Notes: a model not told the origin generated them from the letters alone. 63,973 bases of DNA, filler included, from Collodictyon triciliatum (GCA_043381765.1; 5 parts of 5 records of this genome joined end to end with filler, not necessarily neighbours in it); one strand, 5' to 3'. Positions 18,137 through 62,303 are shown, numbered from the whole stretch's first letter. Translations and numbers: made by a program.

Positions 18137-18236
18137 NNNNNNNNNNNNNNNNNNNNNNNNNNNNNNNNNNNNNNNNNNNNTTAATTAATTAANNNNNNNN
18201 NNNNNNNNNNNNNNNNNNNNNNNNNNNNNNNNNNNN
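18137..18236. other. Artificial contig-joining linker (44 N + TTAATTAATTAA + 44 N)
   Basis: The same 100-nt structure occurs four times. The 12-mer gives stops in all six frames. Confidence 0.95.
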
Positions 18237-20023: not shown

Positions 20024-20694
20024 AACAAAGTCGGCGAGAGATAAAACTATCCAAGGAATCTAGACTCCAATTTGACTTTGTCTTTGTGCCTTGCGGTTGT
20101 CGCCGCGGATCGCAGTGTTTTCTTTTCTTTTTCTTTTTTTTTCTCCTAACTGAAAGGAAATTGGCGCTGCAAACAATAAAATACCCCACATTTGGTATAA
20201 TAATTATTTCTGGAATATATTATTATTTGTCATTTTATGGCATTTTTTGAATGAAGTAAGAATAGTGAATATCGAATAAGACAAATAATATATGGTTAAC
20301 ATACTTGAAATTCTAGTGACGAACATGCGTGACTGAGAGACAAATGTATATGACGTACTTACACCGGTGGCCAACTAATAGACGACCAGATTCCATCTAT
20401 AGAAGTTTGCAACTTCCTTTTTCTATAAAGCCACAAAAGCCACAGGTGCAGCTGACTTTGCTAACCGGAGCTATTATCACGCTACAGTGCACCAAGTCCA
20501 TAGCGCAGAGCCCCTACGTCACCTGGCTTGCATCTGCTACGCATTGCGCATACGAAAGACACAAGCAAACTGCCTGTAGATAAAGAGCGACAGAATTTCT
20601 GGTTCTTCATAGATTATCCGCGTCAGATTATTTGGACTTTGGAATCAGTGCCACGCAGCAGATCAGAACACAAGTGAAAACAAGGAGAGAAAAA

Positions 20695-20760
20695 GACAAA
20701 GACAAAGACAAAGACAAAGACAAAGACAAAGACAAAGACAAAGACAAAGACAAAGACAAA
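20695..20760 (+). repeat. (GACAAA)n microsatellite upstream of the desaturase gene
   Basis: Directly visible. Confidence 0.9.
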
Positions 20761-20986
20761 GAAAGAGTGATCAATGAACCGGCGCCGCCAACAAACAGCG
20801 CCGCCAACAAGCAGCGTCGCAGACACAGAACAACAACCAGAGACACAGCAGCAGAACGAGGCAACCCACACAAACTGAGAAACAAGCAAAAGACAAAGAA
20901 ACACCAAGAAAGACAGGGCAAATTAGGAGATACTTTAGACGAGACAAACCAACAAGCACTGACCCGCCCAACCCACGCCAGCACAC

Positions 20987-23900
20987 ATGCCCGACACAGT
21001 ACCCTCCAACAAGAGCGCCAAGCGCGGCACACGCAGCCTCCGCAAACTGGACCCGAAGCAGCTGCAGCTCCGCCCCGACGCCCCAAAAGGCGCATACCCA
21101 ACCACCCGCGTCGAAGCCCTCCCTGCAGACATCTCCATGGAGGATCTCTTCAACGTGCTGCCCAAAGAGGTATGGCCGCTCCCCTGCTCCCTAATAACTG
21201 CTTCGCCAACAGCAACAGCAACAGCAGCCGCACCAACACCCTCCATACCCCACGTACCGCACCAACCCTCTCTGTATCATGCGTACCGTACCGCCCACAG
21301 GTCTTTGAGCGCAGCAACCTCAAGGCCTTCGGGCAGCTGCTTCTGTCGCTGGCCGGGTGCGGCGTGGGGCTGTATCTGCTGACGGTGCTGCCGTGGTTCC
21401 TGCTGCCGGTCGGGTGGATCTTTGTGGGGACTGCGGCCACGGGGCTGTTTATCATCGGCCACGACTGCGGCCACGATGCGTTTTTTCCTTCTCATGTGGC
21501 TAACGAGGCCATCGGGTTCCTCTGCCACGTCGCCCTGCTCTACCCGTTTGCCTCCTGGAAGGCCCAGCACGATGCCCACCACGCCAACGTCCGCAAGTAT
21601 GCCCCCCGCCCCACCCTCGTCATTCTGCGCTTGGCCGATCAGGCGTCTCTGACCTCTTTCTCTGCTCTTCCTCGCCCAGTGCCACCTATGCTCACCGTCT
21701 CCATCATAGCCTCCAGAAAGACAATGCCTGGAAGCCCGTGCAAGCATACCAGTTTCATCAGTACGGTACTGCCAAGCGCGTCCTTACCCGCCTGATCCAC
21801 GGGCCCTTCTGGTTCTTTGGTTCCATCTTCCACTGGTTTGTCCATCTGTCATTCGACGGCTGCGGCTAGAATGCACACATACACGAATACATCACACACA
21901 CATACCTCATATGAATGCAAATTGGGGGCACCACGTCCTTGATCCGACAGCCGAACCAACGAAGCCCTGCATCAATCAGGTTCAAGTTCAACTTCGACCC
22001 GGAGCGCTTCCCGCTGCCACTGCGCGGACAGATCCTGTTCAACCTGAATGCGATGTATCTGCTTGCTGGCGGGGCCTTTGGAGGTGCCTACTACATGTTT
22101 GGCTTGTGGCCCATCATCAAGTACTGGGGACTGCCCTGGCTTGTCTTCCACTTCTGGCTATCGTCCTTGTCCCTCGCCCAGCACGGCAACCCGCACATTC
22201 CCTTCCTCCACAACGACCACTGGGAAGAGGCCTTGGCCAAGGTCACGCTGATGCCCCACATGAGACTCCCAGCCATGTATGTATTGTCTGCCACCATCCC
22301 ATCAGTATTCTCCCACATTTTTTCTCTAAAAAGAGATATGCTGGGCTCCTCATAAGTTGTCTCCAGGCTGTTATATGTGCTTATGTTCACTTTCAGGCTC
22401 ATATCTTTCCATTCATTTGTTCTAGCCTGGAGCTGTTCTTCCATAATGTCAACTACTCTGTGCCGCACTACATATGTCCGAGCATTCCTTTGTATAACTT
22501 GAAGAAGGCCAATGCTGCTGTCAAGGCCAAGTACGGGCGCTACATGACTGAGTCCAACTTTGGAGTCTCGCTCATCCTCTATATTCTGACCAATTGCCAG
22601 CTGTAAGTGGCTGTTCCCTTTGATATACCAATCATATGCATCCTTTCTCTTTTTTTCTTCTCTTTCAACGTGATACCGACATGTATCAATATTATTTATT
22701 GAAATGTTTCTGCGACAATATCAGCCTGTTCTATTCGAAATGGTTGCAATTCATGAGCCTATCTTGACACGCCACGATATCCTGTATAGGTATGACCCAG
22801 AAACAAACTACCGTACATTCAAGAGCGTCATGGATACCAGCGTTCTCGAGGAAAACATCTCTGGTGTGATTCCCCAGGTGGAGAGTCTACGCGACATCTT
22901 CTTCCGCCTGAACTGGCTACACATCCCCATCCTTACCATCCCTCCTGCACTTGGCATCTACGGTCTTATCTATGTCCCTCTGCAATACAAGACCTTTGTG
23001 TGGTCCTTTATCTATTACATGTGCACTGGTCTCGGCATCACTGCTGGTATGTAATCAGCACAAAATTTATATAACTTATCACTCTTTCTCTATTCAAACA
23101 AATTTAGCTGCATTCTTAATTGGTTCGAATATTATGTCGAGAAAAGGTGATCATGCGTTCATATCTTGCGCACTCCAAGGTGAACACACTCTAATTCCAC
23201 ACGCCCTTCTCCGTCCAGGTTACCATCGCCTGTGGGCTCACCGTGCATATGATGCTGCATTCCCAGTCCGCCTGGTGCTGTGCCTGTTTGGTGCCGGCGC
23301 CATGGAGGGAAGCATCCGCTGGTGGTCGCGTGACCATCGTGCCCACCACCGATACACTGACACCCCCAAAGATCCTTACAGCGCCTCTGAAGGATTCTTC
23401 TATGCCCACATCGGCTGGATGCTGCTGAAGCAGGACCCCACAAAGATTGGTCGCCACGACATCTCCGACCTCAATAAGAGTGCCCTCGTCAGATGGCAGC
23501 ATAGACACTACCTCCCAATTGCCGTCTTCATGGCGTTCATCTTCCCTACCATCGTCGCTGGTCTCGGATGGGGTGACTACAAGGTTCGCTTTTCTGCCTG
23601 GAGGGCATACGCTCTTTCATCCATTTTCAAGTGGTCATGTTTCTTGGCAAATGCATGTTGTTGATAACTCTATTTATTATCTTTTATTTTATTCTATTGT
23701 TCTCATTTGTATCTTGGGTCTTTCACAGGGAGGATTCTTTTTCGCTGCGATGTGTCGCCTGGTCCTTGTTCACCACGCTACATTCTTTGTCAACAGCCTT
23801 GCCCACTACCTGGGTGAAGCCACTTACGCTGACGAACACACTCCCCGGTATAGTATACGACACCTACCACAAGAGATTCACACGTTCCCTGCCCCATCTG

Positions 23901-25592
23901 ACCATGCCTGTGCTTTTGCCCCCTTCAAGTTCAACCACTTTCATCTGATGTCCAATGACATTTGCTTGCTTGACTTGACTTGACTTGCTGACACACGCTT
24001 ATATATCAGTGACTCTATGATCACCGCTGTCCTGACATTCGGAGAGGGATATCACAACTTCCACCACGAATTCCCTTCGGACTATCGCAATGGTAAGTAT
24101 ATCACTTCGGTTTTCTTTCTGTGGTGGCATGATATAAATCTGTATTCATGTGCATTAACAAATTCCTGGAGAAAGTCTGAACCAAACAAAGACATATGCA
24201 AAAGTATCTCATGAATCATCGTTACAAAAATCCTCATCCACTTCTGTATTTCTACGCGTGCAGGTATTCGCTTCTATCACTATGACCCCACCAAATGGGT
24301 GATCCGTTTGCTGTCATACTTTGGCCTGGTAACAATCACATATCAACACACTATTGAGATATGATAATCTTTACCCCTTCTGTATCATCCCATGATATAC
24401 CAATAAATCACATGATTTTTTTTTTGTTACACTTTGAGATGACGGAATCCGTTTTTATTTATACACAAGATTGGTGATGACTATAATCATGTGAATGTTT
24501 TATTTTGTAATACTTTTCTGAGTTTTCTGGTTCTAGGGGATATGTCATTTCCATTTTTCTTTCTATTAACCCTCCTATCTGACGGCAACAGACTTACAAC
24601 CTGAAGCGCTTCTCGAATAATGAGATTTTGAAAGGACAGTACCAAATCAAGGCCAAGAAGCTCGAGAAGGATCGCCAATACATCGAGTGGGGACCAGATG
24701 TGAAGACACTTCCGGAGATGACCCTGCAGGAGGTCAAGAAGAAGGTTTGGGAATGCAAGCCAATAGCAACAGCGGCACATTGCCACTTTCTGTCCTTTCC
24801 CAACAAATTTGTTCTTGCCAGACCGCGAATACAGTCAGCAAATCTTTTTTTTTTTATACTTTTGAGAATTATAACCTACCTACACTTTCAAAGTTCATTT
24901 CATGAGAGTTGTCATGTAACAATGAAGACTTCCCTTTAAATCTGAACTCCTCCTGGGCGTCCCTCTGCAAAAGAAAAATATTGGAAAGGGGGAGCCAGGC
25001 ACACGAGCGATTTCTAACCAACACCACTGTACATAACAACTAGTGTGAAGCAGGCGAGAAGCTGATTGTCATCAACAACTTTGTGCACGACGTGAGCGAG
25101 TTTATCCACGAACACCCTGGTATGTATTTTCGAAATCCTTCATCTACTTTTCTTTTTAGCTTTTTGTGACATTCCACACGGGGGCATATGCCACGGGGCA
25201 GGGTGGTTGTTTCTTGTCTTGTATGGAGGGTGGGTGGGGGGTTATGCGAGCCATATAGTTAAGATGTGACAACCAGCAAGCAAAGCAAAACATATAGTTG
25301 AAAGAAAAAAGAAGAAATGAAATGAAAGAGAAATGAATCAGCAGCCAAAGACCGACTTTTACCTCAATGATGCTTCGCACCGCCGCCCCAAAGAAAGAAT
25401 AATACCAGCCACGCAAGAATAACCTTCGGATTGCACACAACAGGAGGCGCAAAGATCGTGGAGGCGTATCTGGGGATGGACGCGACGAAGGCGTTCCTCA
25501 AGGATGTCTACGCACACTCCAACGCCGCACGCAACACTCTGCACGCACTGCGCACCGGCCGCATCCGCCCGAGCGAGACTACCACGCACTAA
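20987..25592 (+). CDS. Fused fatty-acid desaturase: DesA/FAD6-like omega-6 (delta-12) domain + Ole1-like delta-9 desaturase + C-terminal cytochrome b5; 13 exons
   Basis: All introns are GT-AG and phase-consistent. The N-domain has [33 protein letters not shown] and [13 protein letters not shown]. Exon 22790-23046 continues without a stop into LNWLH...TGLGITAG, followed by [38 protein letters not shown] and the b5 motif HEHPGG. Confidence 0.9.
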
Positions 25593-25835
25593 ATCCCATA
25601 TCCCCATTCCCCATTCCTCATTCCCCATCCAACCAATAAAAGCCCGACCAACAAACAGGAAAGGTTGCTGCCGCCGTGTGTTGGTGCGAATGCGGGGATG
25701 ACGATTTATGGCCAGAACATTCTAGAAACCTCGACTGACGGAGAGATGGATAGATGGAGGGAGAGATGGAGAGAGGCATAGTCGGTAGTTTACATGCGAG
25801 GGAGAAATGGAGTGTGTGCGAGAAGCAAGGGGAGG

Positions 25836-26783
25836 CTACTTTGGGTTTGGGGGCCGGGTGAAGAGGCGGACGCGGCGGGTGTGTGTGGGGTCTGAGGCGT
25901 AGGCGTAGGCGTGGGTGTGGGTGTCGGCCATGAGGACATCGGGGTGCGGGGCGGGCGGGGGCGCGGAGGCAAAGAGAGGGGCGGGCGGGTGCGGGGGTGG
26001 GGCAGCGGGGAGTGCGGCGTGGAAGGTGGCGATGAGGCGGGCGACCTTCGCGGGGTGGACGTGGAGGCGGAAGCGGAGTGCGGCGAGGAGGTGGCGCTCG
26101 AGGAGGGCGAGGGCGGGCAGGGGCAGCGCGCCGAGGGCTGCGTACACGCCGTTGCCGAGGGGCGCGTCCGAGAGCAGCTTGTCGGCCACAAGCAGGGCCC
26201 CGAGCAGCAGCGCACGCATGGCCGCCCCCGGCACGCCCCGCCCCGTGCACGCGCGGTACCGCTGCACAAGCACCAGCGCCGTGCACGCCTGCTCCGCACT
26301 CACCACCCCGTGCGCCGCCCCGCGCCGCAGCTGCTCCTCCACGCTGCACATCGCCCCCAGCGCGCTCAGCGGGTGCCTCTCCGCCTCCGCCTCCGCCTCC
26401 TCCTCGCAGCTCGCCCGCAGGTACGCCCCCACGTGCACAAACAGCTCCTGCAGCTCCTCCCGGCTGAAGCGGCTCGGCTCCCCGTCTCCGCCCCCGCCCC
26501 CGTCCCTGTCCCCGTCTCCGCCCCCGTCGGCCGTCCCGCTCGCCTCGCCGTTCATCTCGTCCTTTGTCTGCTGCTCTGCCTCCGCGCTCGATCGCTGCTC
26601 TTTGCTGTCCCGCTTCTGCTGCTCGCCTGTGCCCTCTGCAGCCGCTGTCTGCTTTCTTTTCCTTGCTCGCGGGCGCCTTCTCCTTGCTTTGTTTATTTGC
26701 TTGCTTCGTCTGCACGGAAAAACATTGGAAGGTGCAATCCGGCGCCTCACGCCGCTTTCGGGTTCATTAGACTTTCTCGGCAT
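25836..26783 (-). CDS. Cyclin-fold protein (Pho80/cyclin-Y/P-U-type-like), intronless, very GC-rich
   Basis: ACTALVLVQRY...MRALLLGALLVADKLLSDAPLGNGVYAALGALPLPALALLERHLLAALRFRLHV resembles the cyclin-box pattern of Pho80/Pcl/cyclin-Y-type cyclins. The start codon is uncertain. Confidence 0.7.
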   Translation of the reverse strand: MPRKSNEPESGVRRRIAPSNVFPCRRSKQINKARRRRPRARKRKQTAAAEGTGEQQKRDSKEQRSSAEAEQQTKDEMNGEASGTADGGGDGDRDGGGGGDGEPSRFSREELQELFVHVGAYLRASCEEEAEAEAERHPLSALGAMCSVEEQLRRGAAHGVVSAEQACTALVLVQRYRACTGRGVPGAAMRALLLGALLVADKLLSDAPLGNGVYAALGALPLPALALLERHLLAALRFRLHVHPAKVARLIATFHAALPAAPPPHPPAPLFASAPPPAPHPDVLMADTHTHAYAYASDPTHTRRVRLFTRPPNPK

Positions 26784-27564
26784 TGTCCCGCTTCGTCCCT
26801 TGCGGCCGCGTTTGGCGCTTAAGTCCTAATGTGGTGATGAGAACGGCCTGATATGGGTCTATGTGCGTCATCCTTGGTCACCGTGTGGTGCGGGTTGCAC
26901 CTATGCATTAGCCGCTTTTGTTTAGTGTGCACGCCGGGTGACGCTCTGTGATGTCATTCTTTTGGACTAAAAGCACTTGTTGGGAAGGTCATCTGTCTAT
27001 GTCAGATGTTTCTATTTCGGCTGTTTTGTTGCAAATGTGGATTTCACTGTTCGTTTGTTCCTTTCTGGGCTCAAAATTAATGCCATTTTCATATACCTTA
27101 TGACCAACAGAATGTTTCCAATTCAACCGCAAACGGATTTCCTTTTTAAATCTGACTTCCTTATTTAATCATATTTGGCTTGTTCAGGAAACGCCTTGGA
27201 CGCCTCAATTTTCTAAATTTTCTGAAATTCCAAACCAGGAACTGCGAACCATTCTTTCCACATTTATATGTCATTCAGCGTATTAGTCTTCTCCATTGTC
27301 GGTGTGGCTGTTCAGCGTTTCCACCAGAAACCAAACCTGCCGTGTTTAATCTGATTAGTTTTTTTTTTCATTTTAATTAATCACTAGTTTTTTTTTTAAT
27401 AGTTTCTTTTTTCCTTTTGCTTTGTCAGCTGGAGTCCACCCCTGCTCCGTCAGTCAACGGCTAGTGTGAAATAAAGCACAAGAAGTTTTTTTTTTTTAAA
27501 GAAGGTAGGGAACAGAGGAGCTAAAAAAAAAAAAAAAAAAAAACCTCCGGCGTTTTCACACAGC

Positions 27565-30500
27565 ATGTGGCGGACTTTGTCTCAAGCCGCACGGCCAAGC
27601 CTACCGTTTGGCTCCCAAAGAGGGCTCCTTCCTCGACTGAGCGTGCTTCGATCTGCTCCTGCTTCTGCTGCTTTATCTCCCCCTCGCCAAAGTGCACCGT
27701 TCTCCACTCTCAGATTACTGGCGAGAAGCGCATTCGGTCAGAGCAGTCGCGCGCTGGCTTCGTCAACTTTGTCCTTGGACGTCAAAGAAAAATTTCCAGA
27801 CTATGACTTCCTTGCAAAATACCAAAAGGTAACCCTAGATATTCTTCCCTACACTCAAATAACACGGGTCATGCCTAATTCCGTGAAAGTCAAAACAAAA
27901 AAAAAAANNNNNNNNNNNNNNNNNNNNNNNNNNNNNNNNNNNNNNNNNNNNNNNNNNNNNNNNNNNNNNNNNNNNNNNNNNNNNNNNNAAAAAAAAAAAA
28001 AAAAAAAAAAAAGGTTACAAAGTCAATTACTACCTTGTCAAAATTATAAACAAGTAAAAAATAAAAATAAAAAAATTTCGACAGAAGATAAGTATGTGAA
28101 ACAATATCACAAAGAATACAACGTGATGCATACTCCCCCTCGCTACCTCAAACCCCATGAACAATTACAAAAAACAATTATCGTAATTAAAACAATAACA
28201 ACAACAAAAAGCAAGAGAAAGAAGAAGGGAGACCAAGAAAGCCAAAGATAGCTCCTTTGCCAAAGCTCACATTGGAGGAAAAGTTTCATGGTGTCAGGAA
28301 CAAAGGAGACAACCCTTTCTTGGACGCTGTATATTTTTTTCTTTTCATAAAAAAAAAAAAAAGACACCCCAATTCAACTATTTTTTTTTTTTTTTACAAT
28401 AATGTTCATGTCTATCAAACGTGATTTGAAATAATTATTTCTAGTCAGTCAACTTTCGCAGAGGCACATAATGCTTCGTATATTTCTCTACAAATCCTTA
28501 AAGAATTAAACATATATTCTTTTATTCAAATTCAAATTTTTTTTTTAATAGGTTGATGAAGGCGATATCACAAATGCAGTGTATTTGATAAAACATAGGT
28601 CCTTTCAAAAAACAAAACAAAATTATCTAAATCTTAAATCAAAAAATAAAATAAAAAAAGAGAGGATTATTTCTCCTCTTCAAACTTAAACTAATTCAAA
28701 GTTTCATCATAACTCACATCTATTTAAGATCATACATACTTTGTTTCTCTCTTTATTTTTCTCCATCTATTTTATACATTTATTCTTTCATAGATAGCTG
28801 ATAAAAATGTTTGTGACCCTACCAGCTTTATATCTATTCAGAAATACTAAAATTCAGATTTTTTTCCCCCCCACCATATGTGTACGGATTTACACGCAGG
28901 AATCGAAGGGCCATCGCCCTCAAGAAGTCATCTTTTCCTGGCAGAGCTGTCCAGATTTTATTGGAAACCATGGCAAAACAAGATAAATTTTCCTTGATCG
29001 AAGAGTTGATTCCAATTCTCCCTAAGATTGTCAAATTGGATTTAAGTTTCATTCATGTCCTCAAATCATTAAACAAATCGCAAACTTGGTCAAATAAGGT
29101 ACTGGTGCCGTTTTTATTTATTTTTATTCTTTTTTTTTTTTTTTACACAACCATTACTAAACAGAAGTAAATTTGAAAGTAATGATAAAGAAAATAAGAT
29201 AAATAGTTCTAAAAATTGAAAAATAAATATATGCAAAAAAAAAAAAAACGAAGTTATCTTAGCGCACCGAAATATTCAATATCAAGTGATAATGCAGCCA
29301 AAATTGTACAAAATATCTATCAAAACAAACAAACAAACAACTATTTCAATACTCACTCTCATTAATGGCTATAAAAGTTGTTTCCATGAAAAGTATATGA
29401 TTTCCGATCAACATAGTCAAATCGTGCGCTCCTTTCATAATCAACCACAAATTTAGGGTTTAATTTTTTTTTTTCTAAATTGTAGGTGGACCTGCTACTA
29501 AATACAAGCGAGGCCCCCAAACAATCAAGGAAAACAAAGGAAAACCAACATATAATTGATTCAAAGGAGGAAAAAACTGAAATTGCTCGACAAAATGAAT
29601 CAACTTACAAAAATTTATCAAATACTCTGAATAAGAAAGCAAAGCAAGAAAACTCTGGTATAGAGAGCCTTGAAAGGGAAAAGAAACCAAATACACAGAA
29701 CAAGGATTACTCTGCCATCAAAACAGAGCAGGATATGGAAGATTTAGTGTCAGAGTAATACCAAATTGAATAGAATAATTTTTTATAATTAAAATATTAT
29801 AAAGAAACAAAATCCATCACGAATATGTATACATGCGTCATATTACTCTAATCTTTCATAGAATTTAATCAACACTTTTACACGATTCAAAAATTCAGAT
29901 AACAAGTTTGAAGTCTACTCATATTTATCACAATAAAAAAAATGCAGAGTATTTGAAGAACAATCACCGACAAATGAAACGCTCGATGCACAAATTACAA
30001 AGTTATTACGAAAAAAAATATTCAAGGAAGCAGTGATTCTTCTTAAATTTGATAAAAGGTAGAATTAACTGTAGCTCTCTCTGTCTCTTCCTTACTCCCT
30101 TAGATCTAATATGAATTATCGTTTTTTTTTTTTTATTATTATTATTATTTCTTCATATGTTTCAAAATTTACTCCATTAAATCTTTATTCTGGATATTTC
30201 TTTTTAAAAATTGGTAATGCTATTTAACCCTCATGTACGAAAGGTTAATTTTGTATTTGAAAAGTCATCATATATTTCTATTTAATTTTCTCTTGAGAAA
30301 AAGAAACGAACATATAACTCGAACAAATTGAAATATAGTTCAGAAAAAGTAAGCGTCACAACTTACAATAAAGTGCTGCATGGTTGTTTGAGAATTCCAA
30401 ACTATGAGGATTTTGATTTGCTATTCAAGTTGTTCAAGAGAAAAGTATCACCATTTCCCCTTGACATATAAATATCTAAATGATCAAAATACTAATACTT

Positions 30501-36374: not shown

Positions 36375-36474
36375 NNNNNNNNNNNNNNNNNNNNNNNNNN
36401 NNNNNNNNNNNNNNNNNNTTAATTAATTAANNNNNNNNNNNNNNNNNNNNNNNNNNNNNNNNNNNNNNNNNNNN
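36375..36474. other. Artificial contig-joining linker
   Basis: 44 N + TTAATTAATTAA + 44 N. Confidence 0.95.
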
Positions 36475-54600: not shown

Positions 54601-54700
54601 NNNNNNNNNNNNNNNNNNNNNNNNNNNNNNNNNNNNNNNNNNNNTTAATTAATTAANNNNNNNNNNNNNNNNNNNNNNNNNNNNNNNNNNNNNNNNNNNN
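54601..54700. other. Artificial contig-joining linker
   Basis: 44 N + TTAATTAATTAA + 44 N. Confidence 0.95.
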
Positions 54701-54820: not shown

Positions 54821-56234
54821 ATGGAGTCGGAAGCAGACCCTTTCCTTCGAACCATCCGCAGATCAGAGTTGGAGGCAAAGGGGAACAGGGAAGTTGTTCA
54901 TGTAGCTGGGCGGGTGGTAAGGCGTCCTTTTTCCTTCTTCATTCTCTCATTTTTTTTTTTTGTTCGTTCTTGCCTGCTGTGGTTTTGGATGGGTGTTGGC
55001 TTCACATTCTCATATGTTTCATTCTATCCACACATGGGCGCCAACGATAAACTGTGAGCGCCAAGAAAAACATACACATACAAAGAATGATGCAAAGGTG
55101 TGTCTAGGTTCTGGTATTGGTCAATAAGGGCCGACTCCACGCTATGGATGCAATCTGCTATCATGCCGGAGGGAATTTGATAGGCGGGGATATCGAGGTA
55201 TGAACATAAACCAGTCTTATGTGATCATCACTCGGTAGACTTTTTCTTTATTGGAAGAAATAGATGGTGGAATGGAAAGAAAATGACAACAGGAAATTGA
55301 AAACCACTTATCCTGCTTCCATTCATTCTAATATATCACCACATATGAATACTTGACGTAATCAAACAAACAATCAAACAATCAAACAATCAAACAATCA
55401 AACAACCAAACAATCAAACAATCAAACAATCAAACAATCAAACAATCAAACAATCAAACAATCAAACAATCAAACAATCAAACAATCAAACAATCAAACA
55501 ATCAAACAAACAATCAAACAAACAAACAAACAAACAAACAAACAAACAAACAAACAAACAAACAAACAAACAAACAAACAAACAAACAAACAAACAAACA
55601 AACAAACAAACAAACAAACAGGATATAGCGCAGCAATCATGCATAAAGTGCCCTTGGCACGCGTATATATTTACACTCGATACTGGTGAAGGACTTTACA
55701 GGTAATTGCAAAGTTATCACATGTATTTTATAAATCGATTATTCCAAGAATTCACCAATATCTGTTATGTGTAACTCTGGAGAATTGGAAGCATCCACAA
55801 TTGAGTTTTCTTCATCAAATATTCTTTTTTTTCCCTTCTTGCAATGTGCGATGATTGAGATATCTTTGATGCTAAAAATTTGATTTACAAACACAGAGGA
55901 ATTGATGGAAATATGAAATCAAAAGGAGTGCGCCAGGTTTTCTTCTCTTCTCATAACAAAACATCTATTGGCAAATCTATTCTTTAATCGTAGAAATGAG
56001 ATACACCTGTTGAAGATGATACCTTCCCTCACAAGAAAAGGAAAATGAAGATATAATAATCATAATAATAATTCTATCTGCCAATAGCCCTGACCAAAAC
56101 CAACCCAATAGAGAATCCATCAAGTGAAAGAGGACGAGGAAGGATGGATATGGATCAAAGTCGCACCGAAAGGAGCAGAGCCCAAAGTATCTTCCGACGA
56201 ATACGCCTTTGGCGAGAAACATCCATACCTATAA
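54821..56234 (+). CDS. RFESD: Soluble Rieske [2Fe-2S] domain-containing protein (RFESD-like), 5 exons
   Basis: The spliced product contains LHAMDAICYHAGGNLIGGDIE|DIAQQSCIKCPWHAYIFTLDTGEGLY..KSKGVRQ|RIHQV, with the CxH and CxxH ligand motifs. The ORF track misses it. Confidence 0.88.
55360..55620 (+). repeat. Compound (AAACAATC)n-(AAAC)n microsatellite ending at a splice acceptor
   Basis: Directly visible. Confidence 0.9.
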
Positions 56235-56421
56235 AACACAAGCGCTGGCAACCAAGCGCAGCCTCCAAGATGATCGTATAACAAACCGCATCTACTATGC
56301 CAGACCTGCTCCAACGCAGCGATCATTCGCCTCACAGATCACCGCCAACCCAGCGCAGCACAAGCAAAGCAAGGAGACACAGAGCCGAAAAGCCCGGGCT
56401 GCAGAAAGCACAGACAACAAG

Positions 56422-59400
56422 ATGAACCCCCCCGGAATCGACTCTGGTTCTGCACAAGCGATCACCGAGCAGCCCGCAAACACGGCACCGCCATGTTCTC
56501 CCTGGCTGCAAACGCGAGGTCTTGGCCCTATCCCACTGGCAGAGCGTTTTCTGTGCGGCTTCTGCAAAGGCCAGTGCCTCGAGCCGCGCCTTCTTCCTTG
56601 CCGGCACCTTGTGTGTCGCGGCTGCCTGCAGCTGAGTCGCAGCGCACAGGAGGCTGCGTCCGGCGAGGATTCGGCCATCAAGTGTCCCGTCTGCTTCGGC
56701 CCAATCCCCGTGGGCAGTGCGAGCCACAGACCCAGTCCGTCACTGTCTCTGGCCACACAACTACTCCGCTCACAAAGCAACGAAGCCGCTTCGGCTGCAT
56801 CCACAACTGCAGATGCAGAGACGGCAAAGGACAGCATTGCGGCGTCGCTGCACAGGGCAAACGCGCGGGCGGGATTTCTGGCCCGTGCAGTGGATGTGCT
56901 GCATCAGTCGGAGGCGCTGCTGAGCGAGAGATGTGCCCAGGCCGAAGGCGACGTGGACGCTTTGTTTGATCGGCTGCTTCAGGCGCTGCAGGTTCGCAGG
57001 CAGCATCTGCTGGATGAGCTGAGGGAAAAGCATGCGGCAAAGGTAGATGTCTTGCGCAATCAGAAGGCGCAGCTGCAGAGTGTCCTCATGGACATGAAAT
57101 GGAGCTTATCTTGCGCAGAGGTAATCCAAAAGTCTGCACCAGAGACCGATGTGCTGCGCATCAGGGAAGAGCTGTGCACTGAGCTGGACTTGGCTGGTCG
57201 TGCTTCCATTCCATTGGAACCTACGGAAAAGGTTAGCGTCGCGACAGCCTATGGCTCTTCAGTAATCTGCATTGCTTGTGTGAAGCGTTGGTGTTGTTGT
57301 ACTATGGATGTTTAGGGAGAGGATGATTAATACATGCGCATTGTGAAGGATGTTAACAGGGGATTTTGATGAATTGTATACGCCGGAATTGTGTTGGAAA
57401 ATTTTACTTTTTTTTTTATTTCGGATATACTGAGGTTTTTTTTTTTTGAAAAAAAAAACGGTATAATAGATTGACGTTTCCCTTCAATCGGCTTACGAAG
57501 TGGAAAATGAAGCAAATCTGGAGGATGTGTTTGCAAAATATGGGCAGCTGCGCTGGAATTATGCTGATGTCACAAAGATGAAAAGTGGATTGAAAAAGTA
57601 AGTTTTTTTTTTTTTACTTTTGCATTCAATATTCATTTTCATATCCCTTTGACGAAAACTTAGAAAATGCCTCCTAGACAAATGGAATTGAAAACTTAAA
57701 CAGATATTACATTTTTTTGTATGAATTTATATCCTTTCCTTCCCCGAATATGATGTCCGCACCAGACACTGAATTCAGAAACTTTATTCTAAAACTGCAG
57801 AAAAGGAAGTGTCAATTCACTTCAACAGTTTGAAATAAAGGAAATATCGAGAATAACTGCTCGATTTGGTGGAAAAGGCACTCAGTTGGGTCGTCTTAAC
57901 CACCCGTATCGTGTTGCTGTCGACTTCAATACGGGTTATATTGTTGTGTCAGACAGCGATAATAATCGCATTCAGGTGATTTTCGGTCGCCTATAAAATC
58001 TTTTGTGTTTAATAAGTTCTTGTTAAATCGTTATAAAATTCTGAATCATATCGTAGAATGGACAGTTCCGAAAGAATGTCATTGAAGAACACTTTATACA
58101 TTAATGTTAATTTCCATATTTGACAGATATACCAGCCAGACGGGACACCTATACGGATGTTCGGCACACAAGGAGACGGAGAGGAGAATTTTCTGTTCCC
58201 GAGAGTATTGTCAAATATTACATATTTCATACATTTTATAAGAAATTCGTATATCATATAACAGCCATGGCGAGTGGTAGCATTATGATAATTATTTTAA
58301 TTAATGTAGAACCTGATATAAAACAGGGTGTTGCTGTTGACGATGAAAGCAGAATTGCCGTGACGGACCAATGGAATCACAGAGTGCACGTATGCATGAT
58401 TTAGTTAATTGATCAAATCCTTCTGATTTTTTTTTTTTTTTTTTTTTGCTTTTCTACACATTAAAACAAAGGGAATGTATAAGAATAATACGTATGTAGA
58501 AAAATGTAGCAAGATGAATATGTCCCCTGAAATTTCATGCCTTTATGAAGGGTATTTTTTTTGGAATGATTTGATAATATTTAAATCCAGTGATTCATTT
58601 AAGTTTGACATTATCCATCAGATCACAAATATTGACGGCTCATTCATTTGTACGTTTGGTTCCAAAGGAGTTGAGCCAGGCCAATTCAATGAGCCTTATG
58701 GAGTAGCTTTTGACCAACATGGTCACTTGCTGGTTGCTGATTCAGATAACCACAGAATTCAAGTAAATAATTATCAAAATTGCACCAGATTTTATTCATG
58801 TATTCATCATTTCAGTTTTACGCCGCGAAAACAGATTCAAGAAAAGAAGGAGATGAAAGACTTTGTTTATTTTTTTCCAGAAAATAAAATGAAGTCGAAG
58901 GGCTTAGCGATCGGGCAGCCTATTCATCGATGGATGCACCTTTTATCATTTTTTTTAAAAGAAAAAACAACTTCTTTTTATGAAAGGTGCTTTCTATAGA
59001 GGGCACATTTATACGGATGTTTGGGAAGAAAGGGACCGAACCAGGAGAATTTCGACATCCTTCAGGGATTACTGTTGACGATTCCGGCAGAATTCTTGTT
59101 TCTGACACATTAAATCACCGGATTCAAGTAAACTTGCTCGAGAGTTTACTTTTTTAAAAAACAAAAAACAAACAAAAAACAAACAAAATCAACCCGCATC
59201 AATACTATCACTTTCAATTGGAATTTGATGAATATTTACTCGTAAATGAGCACCTCTTCATATTGAATCATACCTAAAATCAATCAGATTTTCACGGAAG
59301 GAGGCGAGTTTGTCAAGTCATTTGGAAAGAAAGGGTCAAATAGATCAGAGTTTATTTTCCCTGAAGGAATTGATACGGACTCAAAAGGAAATATATTTGT

Positions 59401-60130: not shown

Positions 60131-61748
60131 TCAGGCTCCAACAATCCGCCCAATAGCAGAAAGCGTAACGAATAATCGTCCGTCTCTGTCAAACACTGCA
60201 CCAGATGGTCCAGAAAAATAAGTTTCTGCCAACAAACGTCCGGATGGTCCGTAAGTCCACATGCGCTCATGCCTCGCACTTGTCAGCACAAACCCACCGT
60301 TCGGCCCACGACCCAGGAAGTTAGTAAGCCCAGTTTCCTTCACCGGGATTTGATTCAGAAACCTCCCGTCTGTGGAGTAAACGCGAACACAATTGCCAGT
60401 TTTTGGAATGGTAAGTAACTCGTTAGAATCATTTACAGCCAAACCAACTACCTTCCCGACAGACGGCCAAAGAGAGTCCTTCCCAATGACACAGATGAAT
60501 GCTCCGGCTTTCGAAAACTTTTGCACACGTTCGTTATTGGTATCTGCAACATAAAAGTTTTCATCTTGGTCGAAAGCAATATAGGTTGGTCGGTCAAAGC
60601 GACCAGGCAAATGACTTTGTCCTCCTCCAATGGTGCGAATGGGCACATGGTCCTTTGCGTCAAAGAGCTGTACGCGATTGTTTTGGTGTTCTGTAACTGC
60701 AAGAATAAGACCGTCAGGTGAGAATGCAACGCCAAAAGGGCTGGTGAACTCACCCGAACCAGTCCCCGGCTTACCAACGCGACCGACATAGTCCAATGAA
60801 GGGGTCAAGATATGGACGCGATGGCCTGCTGCATCTGCAACATATATCAGTCCTGTGGTGGGATGAACTGCAATACCTCTTGGCTCATCGATCGAGTTTC
60901 CCTGACGTTGGTTGGCTTTGGATTCGACGAGTATATGCACTGAGATATCTGCAGCGAATGCTCTTGTAATTGGCCAAACAACAAAGTCGCACAGAAAATT
61001 GAATCCAGGTAAACGCGATGAAAAGCCATCTGATTCATCACTAGATTTTCGAGGAGGGAGGATGGAAATCAAGCTAGTGGGTAGGCGTAAGCGAATGCGA
61101 TATGAGGGGATGGGTTCTATGTGAATCTTTTGTGATGCCAACAAAAGCCTTCTCAAACGGATTTCATTTCCACTTCCCTTTACAGTCGGCAAAAGATGCA
61201 GCGCAATTGAAGCCTGTGTTTCTTGAGAAGAGAGTAATTTACTGTTGAACAGATAGCACCGTCTTATCTAGTTATATTTGATACAGAGCGCTCAATAACA
61301 GTAAAAATCTAAATTAAACAGCAATATTTTTTTTTATTTTTTTAAAAGAAAAAGCAAATCTAGAGGACAAGAGAATCTATCGATGCACAATTGAAAATAA
61401 GAGAATGCCTGATATCTACGGCTCCAGAGATATTACACCCAGATTTTGTTTAGATGGCATATAAGTGCATCGGAGAGCCGTGAATATGAACTTTATCAAG
61501 TGATTTACATGGTTGGTCTCTTTACTCACGTGGCTTAATATGCACTGCTCCTGTATGTTTATCGCGCTGCGGGCCTCACTGAAGCGCAAGACCAAGAGCT
61601 GGTCCACATGTTCCAAGCTGCTTTCGACCTGAGCAAACATCAAGCGTGAGTTCAGCTCCAAAATGAGGCCTTGTGAAGCAACTTGCACGCTGCCTACCTG
61701 ATCCATAGTCCTTTCAAACAGTTCTACACTTGACTTGTGTGCGTTCAT
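60131..61748 (-). CDS. NHL-repeat (six-bladed beta-propeller) protein with helical N-terminus, probably 2 exons
   Basis: EPRGIAVHPTTGLIYVADAAGHRV, GKPGTGSGEFTSPFGVAFSPDG and GRFDRPTYIAFDQDENFYVADTNNERVQKF. Exon 1 from 61748 can splice in phase 0 to 61267. Confidence 0.8.
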
Positions 61749-62203: not shown

Positions 62204-62303
62204 NNNNNNNNNNNNNNNNNNNNNNNNNNNNNNNNNNNNNNNNNNNNTTAATTAATTAANNNNNNNNNNNNNNNNNNNNNNNNNNNNNNNNNNNNNNNNN
62301 NNN
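62204..62303. other. Artificial contig-joining linker
   Basis: 44 N + TTAATTAATTAA + 44 N. Confidence 0.95.

What the first reader, a model, noticed from the sequence alone, without database searches (positions are those of the whole stretch)
20987..25592. Natural three-domain desaturase fusion: omega-6/delta-12-like + delta-9 + cytochrome b5 in one polypeptide
Seen: 13 phase-consistent GT-AG exons form one ORF. The end of the first domain ([13 protein letters not shown]) and the start of the second (LNWLHIPIL...TGLGITAG) lie in the same stop-free exon (22790-23046), joined by a short linker. The fusion is therefore not an artefact of merging two neighbouring genes. Established: Ole1-type delta-9 desaturases carry a C-terminal b5, and delta-12/omega-6 desaturases act on the delta-9 product but are normally separate proteins. 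Inference: this could be a single-chain 18:0 to 18:1 to 18:2 assembly line sharing one electron donor, or a delta-9 enzyme with a fused lipid-sensing module. I cannot confirm that the architecture is undescribed.
Basis: partly seen in the sequence, partly recalled or inferred. Interest (0 to 1): 0.9.

Follow-up and report, generated by a model that had tools for sequence, protein, structure and literature searches.

The report
Two-desaturase plus cytochrome b5 fusion gene
A freshwater eukaryote transcribes one gene that joins a plastid-type omega-6 desaturase-like domain, which has lost two of its eight iron-binding histidines, to a complete delta-9 desaturase and cytochrome b5, and this little-noticed fusion family looks mostly like an enzyme turning into a non-catalytic partner rather than a two-step assembly line.

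Summary
Thirteen GT..AG exons (20987-25592) give one 781-aa ORF. All 12 introns are spliced out in RNA contigs of two runs, and freshwater metatranscriptomes from two other studies show 9 and 6 of them. Exon 6 carries both the end of domain 1 and the start of domain 2.

A 794-aa transcript-derived orthologue is 78% identical. Of the 150 best 50%-identity cluster representatives, 29 carry both desaturase domains.

Domain 2 is an intact Ole1/SCD1-type delta-9 desaturase, and the cytochrome b5 is also intact. Domain 1 belongs to the cyanobacterial DesA / chloroplast FAD6 omega-6 family.

Its third histidine box reads SVPHY instead of HxPHH. That box is kept in 92 of 98 stand-alone relatives. Across the 33 fusions examined, 4 keep all 8 canonical histidines, 6 keep 6 (this gene among them) and 23 keep 4 or fewer. 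The delta-9 and b5 motifs are kept wherever those regions are present.

The best reading is an active delta-9 desaturase with a conserved but catalytically crippled FAD6-like partner domain. A two-step 18:0 to 18:2 line is unlikely for this gene but plausible for relatives such as P0152. I found no published description.

The parts
20980..20986 (+). 5' end of the genome-encoded mRNA. A likely 3' splice acceptor AG lies at 20980-20981 behind a pyrimidine-rich tract, followed by a 5-nt 5' UTR before the ATG.
   Evidence: In 3 runs (X1, X2, X3) the RNA contigs carry the same 22 nt (AGCTAACACTACCTAATCAAAG) ahead of 20980, and X5 carries its last 18 nt. The 22-mer is absent from the whole window at up to 2 mismatches. 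Reading it as a spliced leader is inference.
20987..25592 (+). Complete coding region: 13 exons, 12 GT..AG introns, 781 codons plus TAA.
   Evidence: A 794-aa orthologue, P0001, is 78% identical over 780 columns.
21122..22826 (+). FAD6/DesA-like (omega-6 desaturase family) domain, residues about 46-372, exons 1-6. Box 1 is H115/H119 and box 2 is H151/H154/H155; both are intact.
   Evidence: Pfam on exons 2, 4 and 5. Named omega-6 desaturase relatives at 34-43% identity. PDB 8xks_K at E 1.7e-32. Tree.
22442..22471 (+). Degenerate third histidine box, residues 307-316: [10 protein letters not shown], where relatives have H-D-I-x-V-H-V-P-H-H. S312 and Y316 replace two canonical iron ligands.
   Evidence: RNA contigs of X2 and X3 cover exon 5, and no difference is listed inside these codons.
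22790..23046 (+). Exon 6, the junction exon. It holds the tail of the FAD6-like domain, the linker (residues 373-400, 22827-22910) and membrane helices 1-2 of the delta-9 domain.
   Evidence: The joints 22602>22790 and 23045>23218 appear in X1, X2 and X3. In the fold of P0001 the end of the linker has pLDDT under 50 (P0001 residues 399-406).
22911..24693 (+). Ole1/SCD1-type delta-9 acyl-CoA desaturase domain, residues 401-690. Its motifs are HRLWAH (448-453), HRAHH (485-489), NSLAH (589-593) and HNFHH (622-626).
   Evidence: For P0001: SCD1 chains 4zyo/4ymk at E about 1e-60 and TM 0.82-0.88 normalised to the SCD1 chain. Motifs. This domain is 88% identical to P0001.
24694..24744 (+). Hinge between the delta-9 domain and cytochrome b5, residues 691-707.
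   Evidence: The comparison with the hinge of fungal SdeA (abstract read) is an analogy only.
25044..25592 (+). Cytochrome b5 domain, residues 708-781, exons 12-13, with HPGG (H731) and the second haem histidine H757. The stop codon is at 25590-25592.
   Evidence: Pfam Cyt-b5 on exon 13 and on P0001 at E 2.2e-18. b5 structures match at TM about 0.8-0.87 normalised to the b5 chain. Motifs.
25593..25655 (+). 3' UTR, with AATAAA at 25635-25640 and a poly(A) site near 25655.
   Evidence: Poly(A) loose end at 25655 in X1. The hexamer was read in the sequence.

Best explanation
The gene encodes one membrane protein of 781 residues.

The C-terminal two thirds form a complete, self-sufficient delta-9 acyl-CoA desaturase of the fungal Ole1/SdeA type. 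This part has four membrane helices, three intact histidine boxes plus NxxxH, a hinge and a haem-binding cytochrome b5. It most likely makes 16:1/18:1 in the ER.

The N-terminal third descends from a cyanobacterial/plastid-type omega-6 (delta-12) acyl-lipid desaturase (DesA/FAD6). The fusion is old and was probably inherited from an ancestor whose N-domain was intact, as it still is in P0152. In this lineage the domain lost two of the three ligands of its third histidine box (SVPHY). It then evolved fast and settled under purifying selection.

I infer that it no longer desaturates. Instead it serves the delta-9 domain as a built-in, desaturase-shaped membrane partner, for example as an intramolecular stand-in for the second protomer of a desaturase dimer, and/or as a lipid- or acyl-binding module.

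Shown: the gene structure, transcription, domain identities, motif states and family distribution. Inferred: loss of activity and the partner role.
For: 1. Real, expressed fusion. All 12 splice joints are seen in RNA contigs and one exon holds both domain ends. Complete transcript ORFs of 794 aa (P0001) and 776 aa (P0152) have the same architecture in other organisms.

2. The delta-9 and b5 parts are intact. SCD1 matches at E about 1e-60 and TM 0.82-0.88 normalised to the SCD1 chain. Every catalytic motif is kept in every aligned fused protein that covers it (28 rows).

3. The N-domain is DesA/FAD6-type. It is 34-43% identical to stand-alone proteins that their sources name omega-6/delta-12 desaturases of cyanobacteria and chloroplasts. 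It lies inside the eukaryotic branch of that family.

4. Box 3 is degenerate. 92 of 98 stand-alone relatives match H..HH...IP, whereas this gene has SVPHY and P0001 has TVPHY. The 'HH' before PHIPF is QH, and the histidine after box 2 is N. All eight box histidines are reported as essential for activity in this enzyme class (Shanklin et al. 1994; I saw only the title, in a reference list).

5. Family trend. Of 33 proteins with both domains, 4 keep 8/8 histidines, 6 keep 6/8 and 23 keep 4 or fewer, yet all still match the FAD6-like profile.

6. Rate pattern. The stem to this gene plus P0001 is 1.56 changes per site in the N-domain tree, against 0.62 for P0152. In the delta-9 tree the figures are 0.24 and 0.29.

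7. Present constraint. The N-domain is 77% identical between the window gene and P0001, against 62% for the linker and 36-51% for the tails.

8. Precedent. The closest solved relative of the N-domain is the FAD6-like subunit of the Chlamydomonas Orf2971/Ycf2-FtsHi import motor (8xks_K; E 1.7e-32; TM 0.84 normalised to that chain). Its authors report only partly conserved histidine boxes, no iron density and a bound fatty acid (passages read).

9. Self-association of Ole1-type enzymes is reported for A. fumigatus SdeA (abstract).
Against: - No activity was measured. Six of the eight histidines, including boxes 1 and 2, are kept, which is more than a freely decaying domain would need.
- The same x-x-P-H-Y form of box 3 is conserved in MODEL, P0001, P0002, P0162, P0003 and P0035, which split into two groups in the N-domain tree. 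This could mean an altered but working metal site rather than a dead one.
- Physical packing of the two desaturase domains is not shown. The full-length fold of P0001 has pTM of only 0.63 with a low-confidence linker.
- I could not check whether the organism has a separate intact delta-12 desaturase, because no genome is held.
Confidence: 0.6

Rival explanations
1. Tandem bifunctional enzyme. Both desaturase domains are active and share the C-terminal cytochrome b5, so one chain makes 18:1 and then 18:2.
For: Boxes 1 and 2 of the N-domain are intact and the domain is under purifying selection. Relatives P0152 and P0053 keep all 8 histidines in the same N>delta-9 order. P0152 groups with the window gene in the delta-9 tree with support 87. 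Both domains and b5 should face the same side of the membrane, because each desaturase domain has an even number of membrane helices (hydropathy; the topology is established knowledge of SCD1). Plant FAD2 and FAD3 are said to form heterodimers that channel substrate; I recall that paper and saw only its title phrase in other papers' texts.
Against: Box 3 lacks 2 of 3 canonical ligands (SVPHY), whereas 92 of 98 stand-alone relatives keep them. The N-domain stem branch is long. The substrates do not match: acyl-CoA for Ole1-type enzymes and glycerolipid-bound acyl chains for DesA/FAD6-type enzymes (established knowledge), so an acyltransferase step must intervene. DesA/FAD6 enzymes normally use ferredoxin rather than b5 (review passages).
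Confidence: 0.2
2. Neo-functionalised N-domain. The conserved x-P-H-Y variant builds a different metal site (for example with a Tyr ligand or a single metal) and carries out other chemistry on lipids, such as hydroxylation, another regiospecificity, or oxygen or redox sensing that tunes the delta-9 domain.
For: The N-Y-x-[VI]-P-H-Y motif is shared by MODEL, P0001, P0002, P0162, P0003 and P0035 despite only 29-32% identity to P0001 over the N-domain region for the last four. Boxes 1 and 2 are retained and the domain is 77% identical between the two orthologues.
Against: I know of no precedent in this enzyme class for a working site without these histidines. The wider family continues to complete loss of all boxes (23 of 33 keep 4 or fewer histidines). 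That fits a path towards a non-catalytic role better than a new chemistry.
Confidence: 0.13
3. Artefact: two genes, or a mis-assembly, read through as one, or two proteins made from one transcript.
For: Only assembled contigs were available, not single long reads. The organism may trans-splice (the 5' leader), and trans-splicing organisms can resolve polycistrons.
Against: Both domain ends lie in one stop-free exon. Contigs from runs of three studies bridge exon 5 to exon 6, and contigs of X1, X2 and X3 also bridge exon 6 to exon 7. No leader or poly(A) loose end is listed between the domains, though 4 loose ends were not shown. 29 of the 150 best cluster representatives carry both domains. 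14 of the 16 listed variants in RNA contigs are synonymous.
Confidence: 0.03

Closest known systems
Fungal Ole1 / A. fumigatus SdeA-type delta-9 acyl-CoA desaturase with C-terminal cytochrome b5 (catalytic core as in mammalian SCD1, PDB 4YMK/4ZYO)
   Same: Residues 401-781 have the same domain order (desaturase, hinge, b5), all histidine boxes, NxxxH, HPGG and the second haem histidine. For P0001, SCD1 matches at E about 1e-60 and TM 0.82-0.88 normalised to the SCD1 chain.
   Different: It carries an extra N-terminal desaturase-family domain of about 330 residues plus a linker. That domain is absent from the fungal and animal enzymes.
Cyanobacterial DesA / chloroplast FAD6 omega-6 (delta-12) acyl-lipid desaturases
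   Same: The N-domain is 34-43% identical to these, has the same length and helix layout, and keeps boxes 1 and 2. It branches within the family.
   Different: Box 3 is SVPHY rather than HxPHH. There is no long transit-peptide-like leader; the stand-alone chloroplast forms have about 100 extra N-terminal residues. It is fused to an ER-type b5-dependent enzyme, whereas DesA/FAD6 are ferredoxin-dependent (review passages).
FAD6a/FADL, the FAD6-like subunit of the Chlamydomonas Orf2971(Ycf2)-FtsHi chloroplast import motor (PDB 8XKS, 8XQW)
   Same: It is the closest solved structure to the N-domain (E 1.7e-32; TM 0.83-0.84 normalised to that chain; 25-26% identity). It too has a degenerate box 3 region with N-x-N-Y (NNANYMLPQ). 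The authors report no iron density and a bound fatty acid, so it is a precedent for a non-catalytic FAD6 fold.
   Different: It is much more distant than true FAD6 proteins (115 bits against 250-320). Its box 1 is also lost (AHECA). It is a free-standing 682-aa subunit of a plastid protein-import machine and is not fused to a desaturase. The shared N-x-N-Y is probably convergent. Its histidine-box figure (S11B) is in a supplement I could not see.
Non-covalent desaturase dimers (FAD2-FAD3 heterodimers, Ole1/SdeA self-association)
   Same: This is the same idea of two desaturase-fold units working side by side. The SdeA abstract reports a self-associated complex in which the b5 of one protomer is modelled to approach the other protomer's iron site.
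   Different: Here the two units are covalently joined, belong to different desaturase subfamilies, and one is probably inactive. The FAD2-FAD3 work is recalled; only its title phrase was seen.

Membership tests
Ole1/SCD-type delta-9 acyl-CoA desaturase with fused C-terminal cytochrome b5 | Three histidine boxes HxxxxH, HxxHH and HxxHH, plus NxxxH in the fourth membrane helix | tested here: met
   HRLWAH 448-453, HRAHH 485-489, HNFHH 622-626 and NSLAH 589-593.
Ole1/SCD-type delta-9 acyl-CoA desaturase with fused C-terminal cytochrome b5 | Sequence and fold homology to solved SCD1 | tested here: met
   For the orthologue P0001: 4zyo_A at E 7.7e-61 and 4ymk_A at E 3.2e-60; TM 0.82-0.88 normalised to the SCD1 chain. 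The window protein is 88% identical to P0001 in this domain.
Ole1/SCD-type delta-9 acyl-CoA desaturase with fused C-terminal cytochrome b5 | C-terminal cytochrome b5 with both haem-ligating histidines (HPGG ... HS) | tested here: met
   H731 in HPGG and H757 in AHS. Pfam Cyt-b5 on exon 13 at E 1.5e-3 (18.9 bits, below the cutoff of 23.7) and on P0001 at E 2.2e-18.
Ole1/SCD-type delta-9 acyl-CoA desaturase with fused C-terminal cytochrome b5 | Delta-9 regiospecific desaturation of 16:0/18:0-CoA | not testable with these tools
   This needs expression in a yeast ole1 mutant and fatty-acid profiling.
DesA/FAD6 omega-6 (delta-12) acyl-lipid desaturase | Homology to named omega-6 desaturases of cyanobacteria and chloroplasts | tested here: met
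   98 stand-alone hits at E <= 1e-10, 34-43% identity for the best. They include proteins named omega-6/delta-12 desaturase, chloroplast w6 desaturase (Dunaliella) and omega-6 FAD chloroplastic (Selaginella). Tree placement.
DesA/FAD6 omega-6 (delta-12) acyl-lipid desaturase | Histidine boxes 1 (HDCGH) and 2 (HxxHH) | tested here: met
   HDCGH 115-119 and HDAHH 151-155.
DesA/FAD6 omega-6 (delta-12) acyl-lipid desaturase | Histidine box 3 (H-x-P-H-H before IP) | tested here: not met
   SVPHY at 312-316, so one of three histidines is left. 92 of 98 stand-alone relatives match the box. The orthologue has TVPHY. I therefore do not file it as a working member.
DesA/FAD6 omega-6 (delta-12) acyl-lipid desaturase | Plastid or cyanobacterial location with ferredoxin as donor | tested here: inconclusive
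   The window protein has about 45 residues before the domain, against roughly 100 transit-peptide-like residues in the chloroplast forms, and it is fused to an ER-type enzyme. Location was not predicted with a dedicated tool.
Non-catalytic FAD6-like subunit (FAD6a/FADL) of the chloroplast Ycf2/Orf2971-FtsHi motor | Close sequence kinship to the Chlamydomonas subunit and the same long N-terminal extension | tested here: not met
   The match is only 115 bits, covers residues 298-633 of the 682-aa chain, and is far weaker than the matches to true FAD6. The likeness is a resemblance in the fate of the fold, not membership.

The most novel reading that the evidence does not exclude
The family is a natural covalent hetero-pair of two different membrane desaturases driven by one built-in cytochrome b5. 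Members with all eight N-domain histidines (P0152, P0053, and the reverse-order P0134 and P0149) would be true two-step delta-9 plus delta-12 enzymes. The window gene would then be either a still-active variant with a new x-P-H-Y iron site or a caught intermediate on the way to a pseudo-desaturase that regulates or scaffolds its delta-9 partner. If the window protein itself makes 18:2, the eight-histidine rule for this enzyme class would need revising.
Probability: 0.2. Interest if true: 0.85.

Novelty: new variant of a known kind. Interest (0 to 1): 0.6.

Why it matters
Membrane desaturases set membrane fluidity and start polyunsaturated fatty-acid synthesis. How they pair up, receive electrons and hand over substrates is still poorly understood, because they are hard to purify.

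A natural chain that ties a plastid-type omega-6 desaturase fold to an ER-type delta-9 desaturase and its b5 donor gives a ready-made system for these questions. Its relatives range from fully intact to fully degenerate N-domains. That series can be used to ask three things:
- whether two desaturases can share one electron donor;
- whether desaturase dimers need two active sites;
- how an enzyme domain turns into a structural or regulatory one.

It also cautions annotators. Genes of this family will be called 'bifunctional desaturase' by domain content, although most have lost the first active site.

Tried and rejected
**Steps that failed or gave nothing**
- The window's own genome is not held. 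I therefore could not look for a separate delta-12 desaturase, for leader-RNA genes or for the organism's identity.
- Complex prediction on N-domain against delta-9 domain was not folded, for a reason unrelated to the pair.
- Rfam on the whole window at the gathering threshold gave 0 matches.
- Earlier findings of this scan, searched by place, sequence and words, held nothing relevant.
- The ESM Atlas on P0001 returned only fungal Ole1-like clusters at 0.89 and a Streptophyta desaturase cluster at 0.78. On the NHL ORF it returned only bacterial and archaeal NHL clusters. Neither helps with taxonomy.
- Pfam on 10 large ORFs elsewhere in the window gave an NHL repeat match and a weak TRIM coiled-coil match; 8 of the 10 had no match.

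**Literature**
- I searched for the architecture in five ways. The phrases 'two desaturase domains', 'tandem desaturase' and 'second desaturase domain' occur in 0 papers. 'N-terminal desaturase domain' occurs in 3 of the papers listed; their titles are on Ole1/SdeA-type or other desaturases and I did not read the passages.
- In the 2016 classification paper (passages read), the sequence set was limited to 350-550 aa. That range would have excluded these proteins.
- Subscription journals and domain-architecture databases were not searchable, so I cannot claim the architecture is unrecorded.

**Ideas rejected**
- That the N-domain is orthologous to Chlamydomonas FADL: the match is much weaker than to true FAD6.
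- That the joint 24095>24591 in X3 is an alternative isoform: it is non-GT-AG, comes from a contig with three other letters in ten bases just upstream (24043-24052), and is most likely a relative's sequence that aligns poorly.


Full report
**1. The observation**

I read window 20500-26200 and rebuilt the gene from coordinates. Thirteen exons between 20987 and 25592 are joined by 12 GT..AG introns of 113-324 nt with consistent phases. They give a 2346-nt CDS of 781 codons ending in TAA.

Exon 6 (22790-23046, residues 360-446) has no stop. It holds the last conserved stretch of the first desaturase-family domain, a linker of about 28 residues, and the first two membrane helices of the second domain up to GITAG.

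Pfam was run on 10 of the 13 exons; the other three were too short to send. FA_desaturase matched exons 2, 4 and 5 at profile positions 3-71, 131-187 and 208-245, which make one domain. Only exon 2's match (39.5 bits) reaches Pfam's cutoff of 29.7; exons 4 and 5 score 22.1 and 19.0. It matched again in exon 7 at 27-154 (30.3 bits), a second domain. Cyt-b5 matched exon 13 at 18.9 bits, below its cutoff of 23.7; the full domains are confirmed on the orthologue (section 3).

**2. Transcription**

A search of public runs found 20 rows holding part of the stretch, 18 of them on record as RNA, from 14 studies. Most are lake or freshwater metatranscriptomes. I laid four runs.

- X1 and X2 show all 12 joints as GT..AG. 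One 1848-nt contig in each runs from 20980 through exon 8.
- X3, from another study, shows 9 of the 12 joints. One of its contigs covers 22068-22956, that is exons 4-5-6 and into the delta-9 helices.
- X5, from a third study, shows 6 joints, including 22602>22790.
- Bins lying wholly inside introns 10 and 12 have zero depth in X1 and X2, so these runs hold processed RNA.
- A poly(A) loose end sits at 25655, 15 nt after an AATAAA (25635-25640).
- Of the 16 base differences listed in exons, 14 are synonymous.
- No difference is listed in codons 307-316, so the unusual box 3 is what is expressed.

One limit remains. These are assembled contigs, so no single molecule spanning the whole mRNA was seen.

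**3. Relatives with the same architecture**

Exon 6 alone, searched against longer proteins, found 1 protein at E <= 0.001 among 51 candidates. This is P0001, a 794-aa complete ORF from a Trinity transcriptome in EukProt. It is 78% identical to the window protein over 780 columns. Pfam gives it two FA_desaturase stretches plus Cyt-b5.

A full HMMER scan of 1.84 billion cluster representatives with P0001 gave 14097 hits at E <= 1e-3. I scanned the 150 best, plus P0001, P0152, P0162 and the window model (154 in all), with a profile of the N-domain and with the delta-9 and b5 parts.

- 33 proteins have both desaturase domains; 29 of these are among the 150 best.
- 31 are in the order N-domain > delta-9. 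Of these, 25 have b5. Several of the 6 without it end inside the delta-9 match (P0035, P0059, P0123), so I take them for fragments.
- 2 (P0134 and P0149) are in the reverse order and lack b5.

P0152 (776 aa) is a complete MMETSP transcript ORF. The fusion is therefore a family and not a peculiarity of this assembly.

**4. The C-terminal two thirds**

For P0001, human and mouse SCD1 match at E 7.7e-61 and 3.2e-60. The AlphaFold2 model of P0001 was built from a 78-row alignment and has mean pLDDT 91.6 and pTM 0.63. It superposes on SCD1 at TM 0.82-0.88 and on cytochrome b5 at about 0.8-0.87, each normalised to the solved chain.

In the window protein the following are all present:
- HRLWAH (448-453)
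- HRAHH (485-489)
- NSLAH (589-593)
- HNFHH (622-626)
- HPGG (731-734)
- the second haem histidine (H757)

They are also kept in every one of the 28 aligned fused proteins that covers them. This part meets every sequence criterion of an Ole1/SdeA-type self-sufficient delta-9 desaturase. Its activity is inferred.

**5. The N-terminal third**

Stand-alone relatives were found by searching shorter proteins with P0001 residues 60-400. There were 98 hits at E <= 1e-10, the best at 34-43% identity. Where a source names them, they are omega-6 (delta-12) acyl-lipid desaturases of cyanobacteria and chloroplast omega-6 desaturases (Dunaliella, Selaginella).

I built a tree of 46 hand-picked rows by a quick IQ-TREE search: 8 of the 33 fused N-domains, 11 short stand-alone forms, 14 plastid-type, 10 cyanobacterial and 3 outgroup rows. 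The strongly degenerate fused rows were left out. The tree places the window domain and P0001 inside a eukaryotic clade (SH-aLRT 94) together with the short stand-alone forms and P0152. That clade lies next to the plastid FAD6 clade.

Their common stem is long: 1.56 changes per site, against 0.62 for P0152. In the delta-9 tree the same pair has a stem of 0.24, against 0.29 for P0152. The N-domain therefore sped up while the delta-9 domain did not.

**6. The histidine boxes of the N-domain**

By regular expressions, 95 of 98 stand-alone relatives have HxCxH and 92 of 98 have H..HH followed by IP. Four of the six misses are short fragments.

The window protein compares as follows:

| Position | Window protein | Stand-alone relatives |
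|---|---|---|
| Box 1 | HDCGH (115-119) | HDCGH |
| Box 2 | HDAHH (151-155) | HxxHH |
| Box 3 region | [10 protein letters not shown] (307-316) | HDIxVHVPHH |
| After box 2 | N | H |
| Before PHIPF | QH | HH |

In box 3, the first and third histidines are replaced by Ser and Tyr. P0001 has the same pattern, with Thr for Ser.

Aligned to the domain profile, the 33 fused proteins fall into three classes:
- 8 of 8 canonical histidines: 4 proteins (P0152, P0053, and the reverse-order P0134 and P0149).
- 6 of 8, always as x-P-H-Y in box 3: 6 proteins (window, P0001, P0002, P0162, P0003, P0035).
- 4 or fewer: 23 proteins. A few of these are partly gapped (P0016, P0020, P0025, P0028).

All eight box histidines are reported as essential in this enzyme class. 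I saw only the title of Shanklin et al. 1994, in a reference list.

**7. Constraint**

Between the window protein and P0001, identity by region is as follows:

| Region | Identity |
|---|---|
| N-domain | 77% |
| Linker | 62% |
| Delta-9 domain | 88% |
| b5 | 76% |
| Tails | 36-51% |

The N-domain is therefore maintained and is not decaying at present.

**8. History of the fusion**

I built a FastTree of 109 delta-9 domains, taking rows that cover at least 240 of the 290 query positions; 28 of them are fused. In this tree 27 fused rows fall in one 43-row clade (support 90). The 16 unfused rows in that clade include several short sequences that look N-terminally cut.

The window gene, P0001, P0152, P0003, P0002 and P0162 form one group (support 87). 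This fits one old fusion with an intact N-domain, followed by stepwise loss of its active site. However, the tree is quick, unrooted and unnamed, and starred branches still force at least 3 changes of the fused/unfused label. A single origin is therefore not shown.

**9. Structural precedent**

The nearest solved relative of the N-domain is chain K of 8XKS (also 8XQW): E 1.7e-32, TM 0.83-0.84 normalised to that chain, 25-26% identity. This is the FAD6-like subunit of the Chlamydomonas Orf2971/Ycf2-FtsHi chloroplast import motor. In the preprint (passages read) the authors report only partly conserved histidine boxes, no density for iron, and a fatty-acid-like density in the substrate tunnel.

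It shows that a FAD6 fold can persist as a lipid-binding, non-catalytic membrane subunit. The kinship is much more distant than to true FAD6 proteins, so this is a functional analogy and not membership.

**10. How it most likely works**

*Shown:* one transcribed chain, an intact delta-9 desaturase and b5, and a conserved FAD6-like domain with 6 of 8 ligands.

*Inferred:*
- The chain sits in the ER with both desaturase caps and b5 on the cytosolic side. Each domain has an even number of membrane helices; hydropathy picks out 70-114, 402-425 and 541-588, and the topology is taken from SCD1.
- The delta-9 part makes monoenes from acyl-CoA using its own b5.
- The N-domain no longer desaturates. 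It acts as a built-in partner: a pseudo-protomer in a dimer-like pair, or an acyl- or lipid-binding module. Self-association with b5 acting across protomers is reported for the fungal enzyme SdeA (abstract).

I put this reading at about 0.6. The rivals are:
- A true tandem delta-9/delta-12 enzyme (0.2). It is weakened by box 3 and by the acyl-CoA versus acyl-lipid mismatch, but it is plausible for P0152-type relatives.
- A new metal site and new chemistry, suggested by the conserved x-P-H-Y (0.13).
- An artefact (0.03).

**11. Novelty**

Five literature searches found no description of a protein with two desaturase domains. A 2016 classification limited its set to 350-550 aa, which would have excluded this family.

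The proteins themselves sit unannotated in public transcriptome and metagenome collections, and domain databases probably list the architecture. I therefore rate it a new variant of known kinds, not a new kind.

**12. What stayed open**

- The organism and the taxa of the relatives are unknown.
- The packing of the two domains is unknown (pTM 0.63; the complex job was not folded).
- Activity is untested.
- Supplementary figures of the motor-complex preprint, which show the histidine boxes of FAD6a, could not be seen.

Noticed in passing
window 20980-20986 (5' end of the mRNA): RNA contigs of X1, X2 and X3 begin with the same 22 nt (AGCTAACACTACCTAATCAAAG) that are not in the genome ahead of 20980, and X5 carries the last 18 of them. 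The genome has a pyrimidine-rich tract and AG at 20980-20981. The 22-mer is absent from all 64 kb (at most 2 mismatches) and from the searched literature. This looks like a 22-24-nt trans-spliced leader of an organism for which I know of no published leader. A far-upstream 5' exon is the alternative.
   Followed up: partly
proteins P0134 (735 aa) and P0149 (883 aa): Two cluster representatives carry the same two desaturase families in the reverse order (delta-9 first, FAD6-like second). They have all 8 N-type histidines and no b5. In the delta-9 tree they group with P0053. This may be a second, independent fusion or a rearrangement.
   Followed up: partly
proteins P0163-P0172 and P0174: These are stand-alone omega-6 desaturase-like proteins of 352-371 aa with intact boxes and no transit-peptide-like leader, found on contigs of 1.2-1.5 kb. 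They are the closest unfused relatives of the fused N-domain (39-43% identity). They may be the cytosolic/ER stand-alone form from which the fusion arose.
   Followed up: partly
window 20680-20772: A long (AAAGAC)n microsatellite lies about 200 nt upstream of the mRNA start. Read laying skipped it as a repeat.
   Followed up: no
window 25619 (3' UTR) and the exon variants listed: X1 and X2 lack 7 nt at 25619 and differ from the window at 13 listed exon positions, 11 of them synonymous. X1 and X2 are therefore close strains or species and not the assembled individual. In X3, 14 of the 20 laid contigs are only 90-95% alike, so related species in the same lakes express a homologue.
   Followed up: partly
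window 56128-57315 (+) and 60131-61267 (-): One ORF has a weak TRIM coiled-coil match (E 1.5e-4, below Pfam's cutoff). Another has NHL repeats forming a six-bladed propeller (E 7e-19). These are the only other Pfam matches among the 10 large ORFs tested. Gene density in the window looks low.
   Followed up: partly
window 25836-26825 (-): A GC-rich, 329-codon open frame lies antisense just downstream of the desaturase gene, next to a GGCGTA/GGGTGT-type repeat at about 25896-25930 where metatranscriptome contigs show slipped joints. It has no Pfam match at E <= 1e-3. By eye, part of it resembles a cyclin fold; this was not tested.
   Followed up: no
window 18137-18236, 27908-27988, 36375-36474, 54601-54700 and 62204-62303: There are nine short runs of N: eight of 44 nt, arranged as four pairs each separated by 12 bases, and one single run of 81 nt. 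Together they make up the 433 N of the window. They look like masking or scaffolding marks rather than biology.
   Followed up: no
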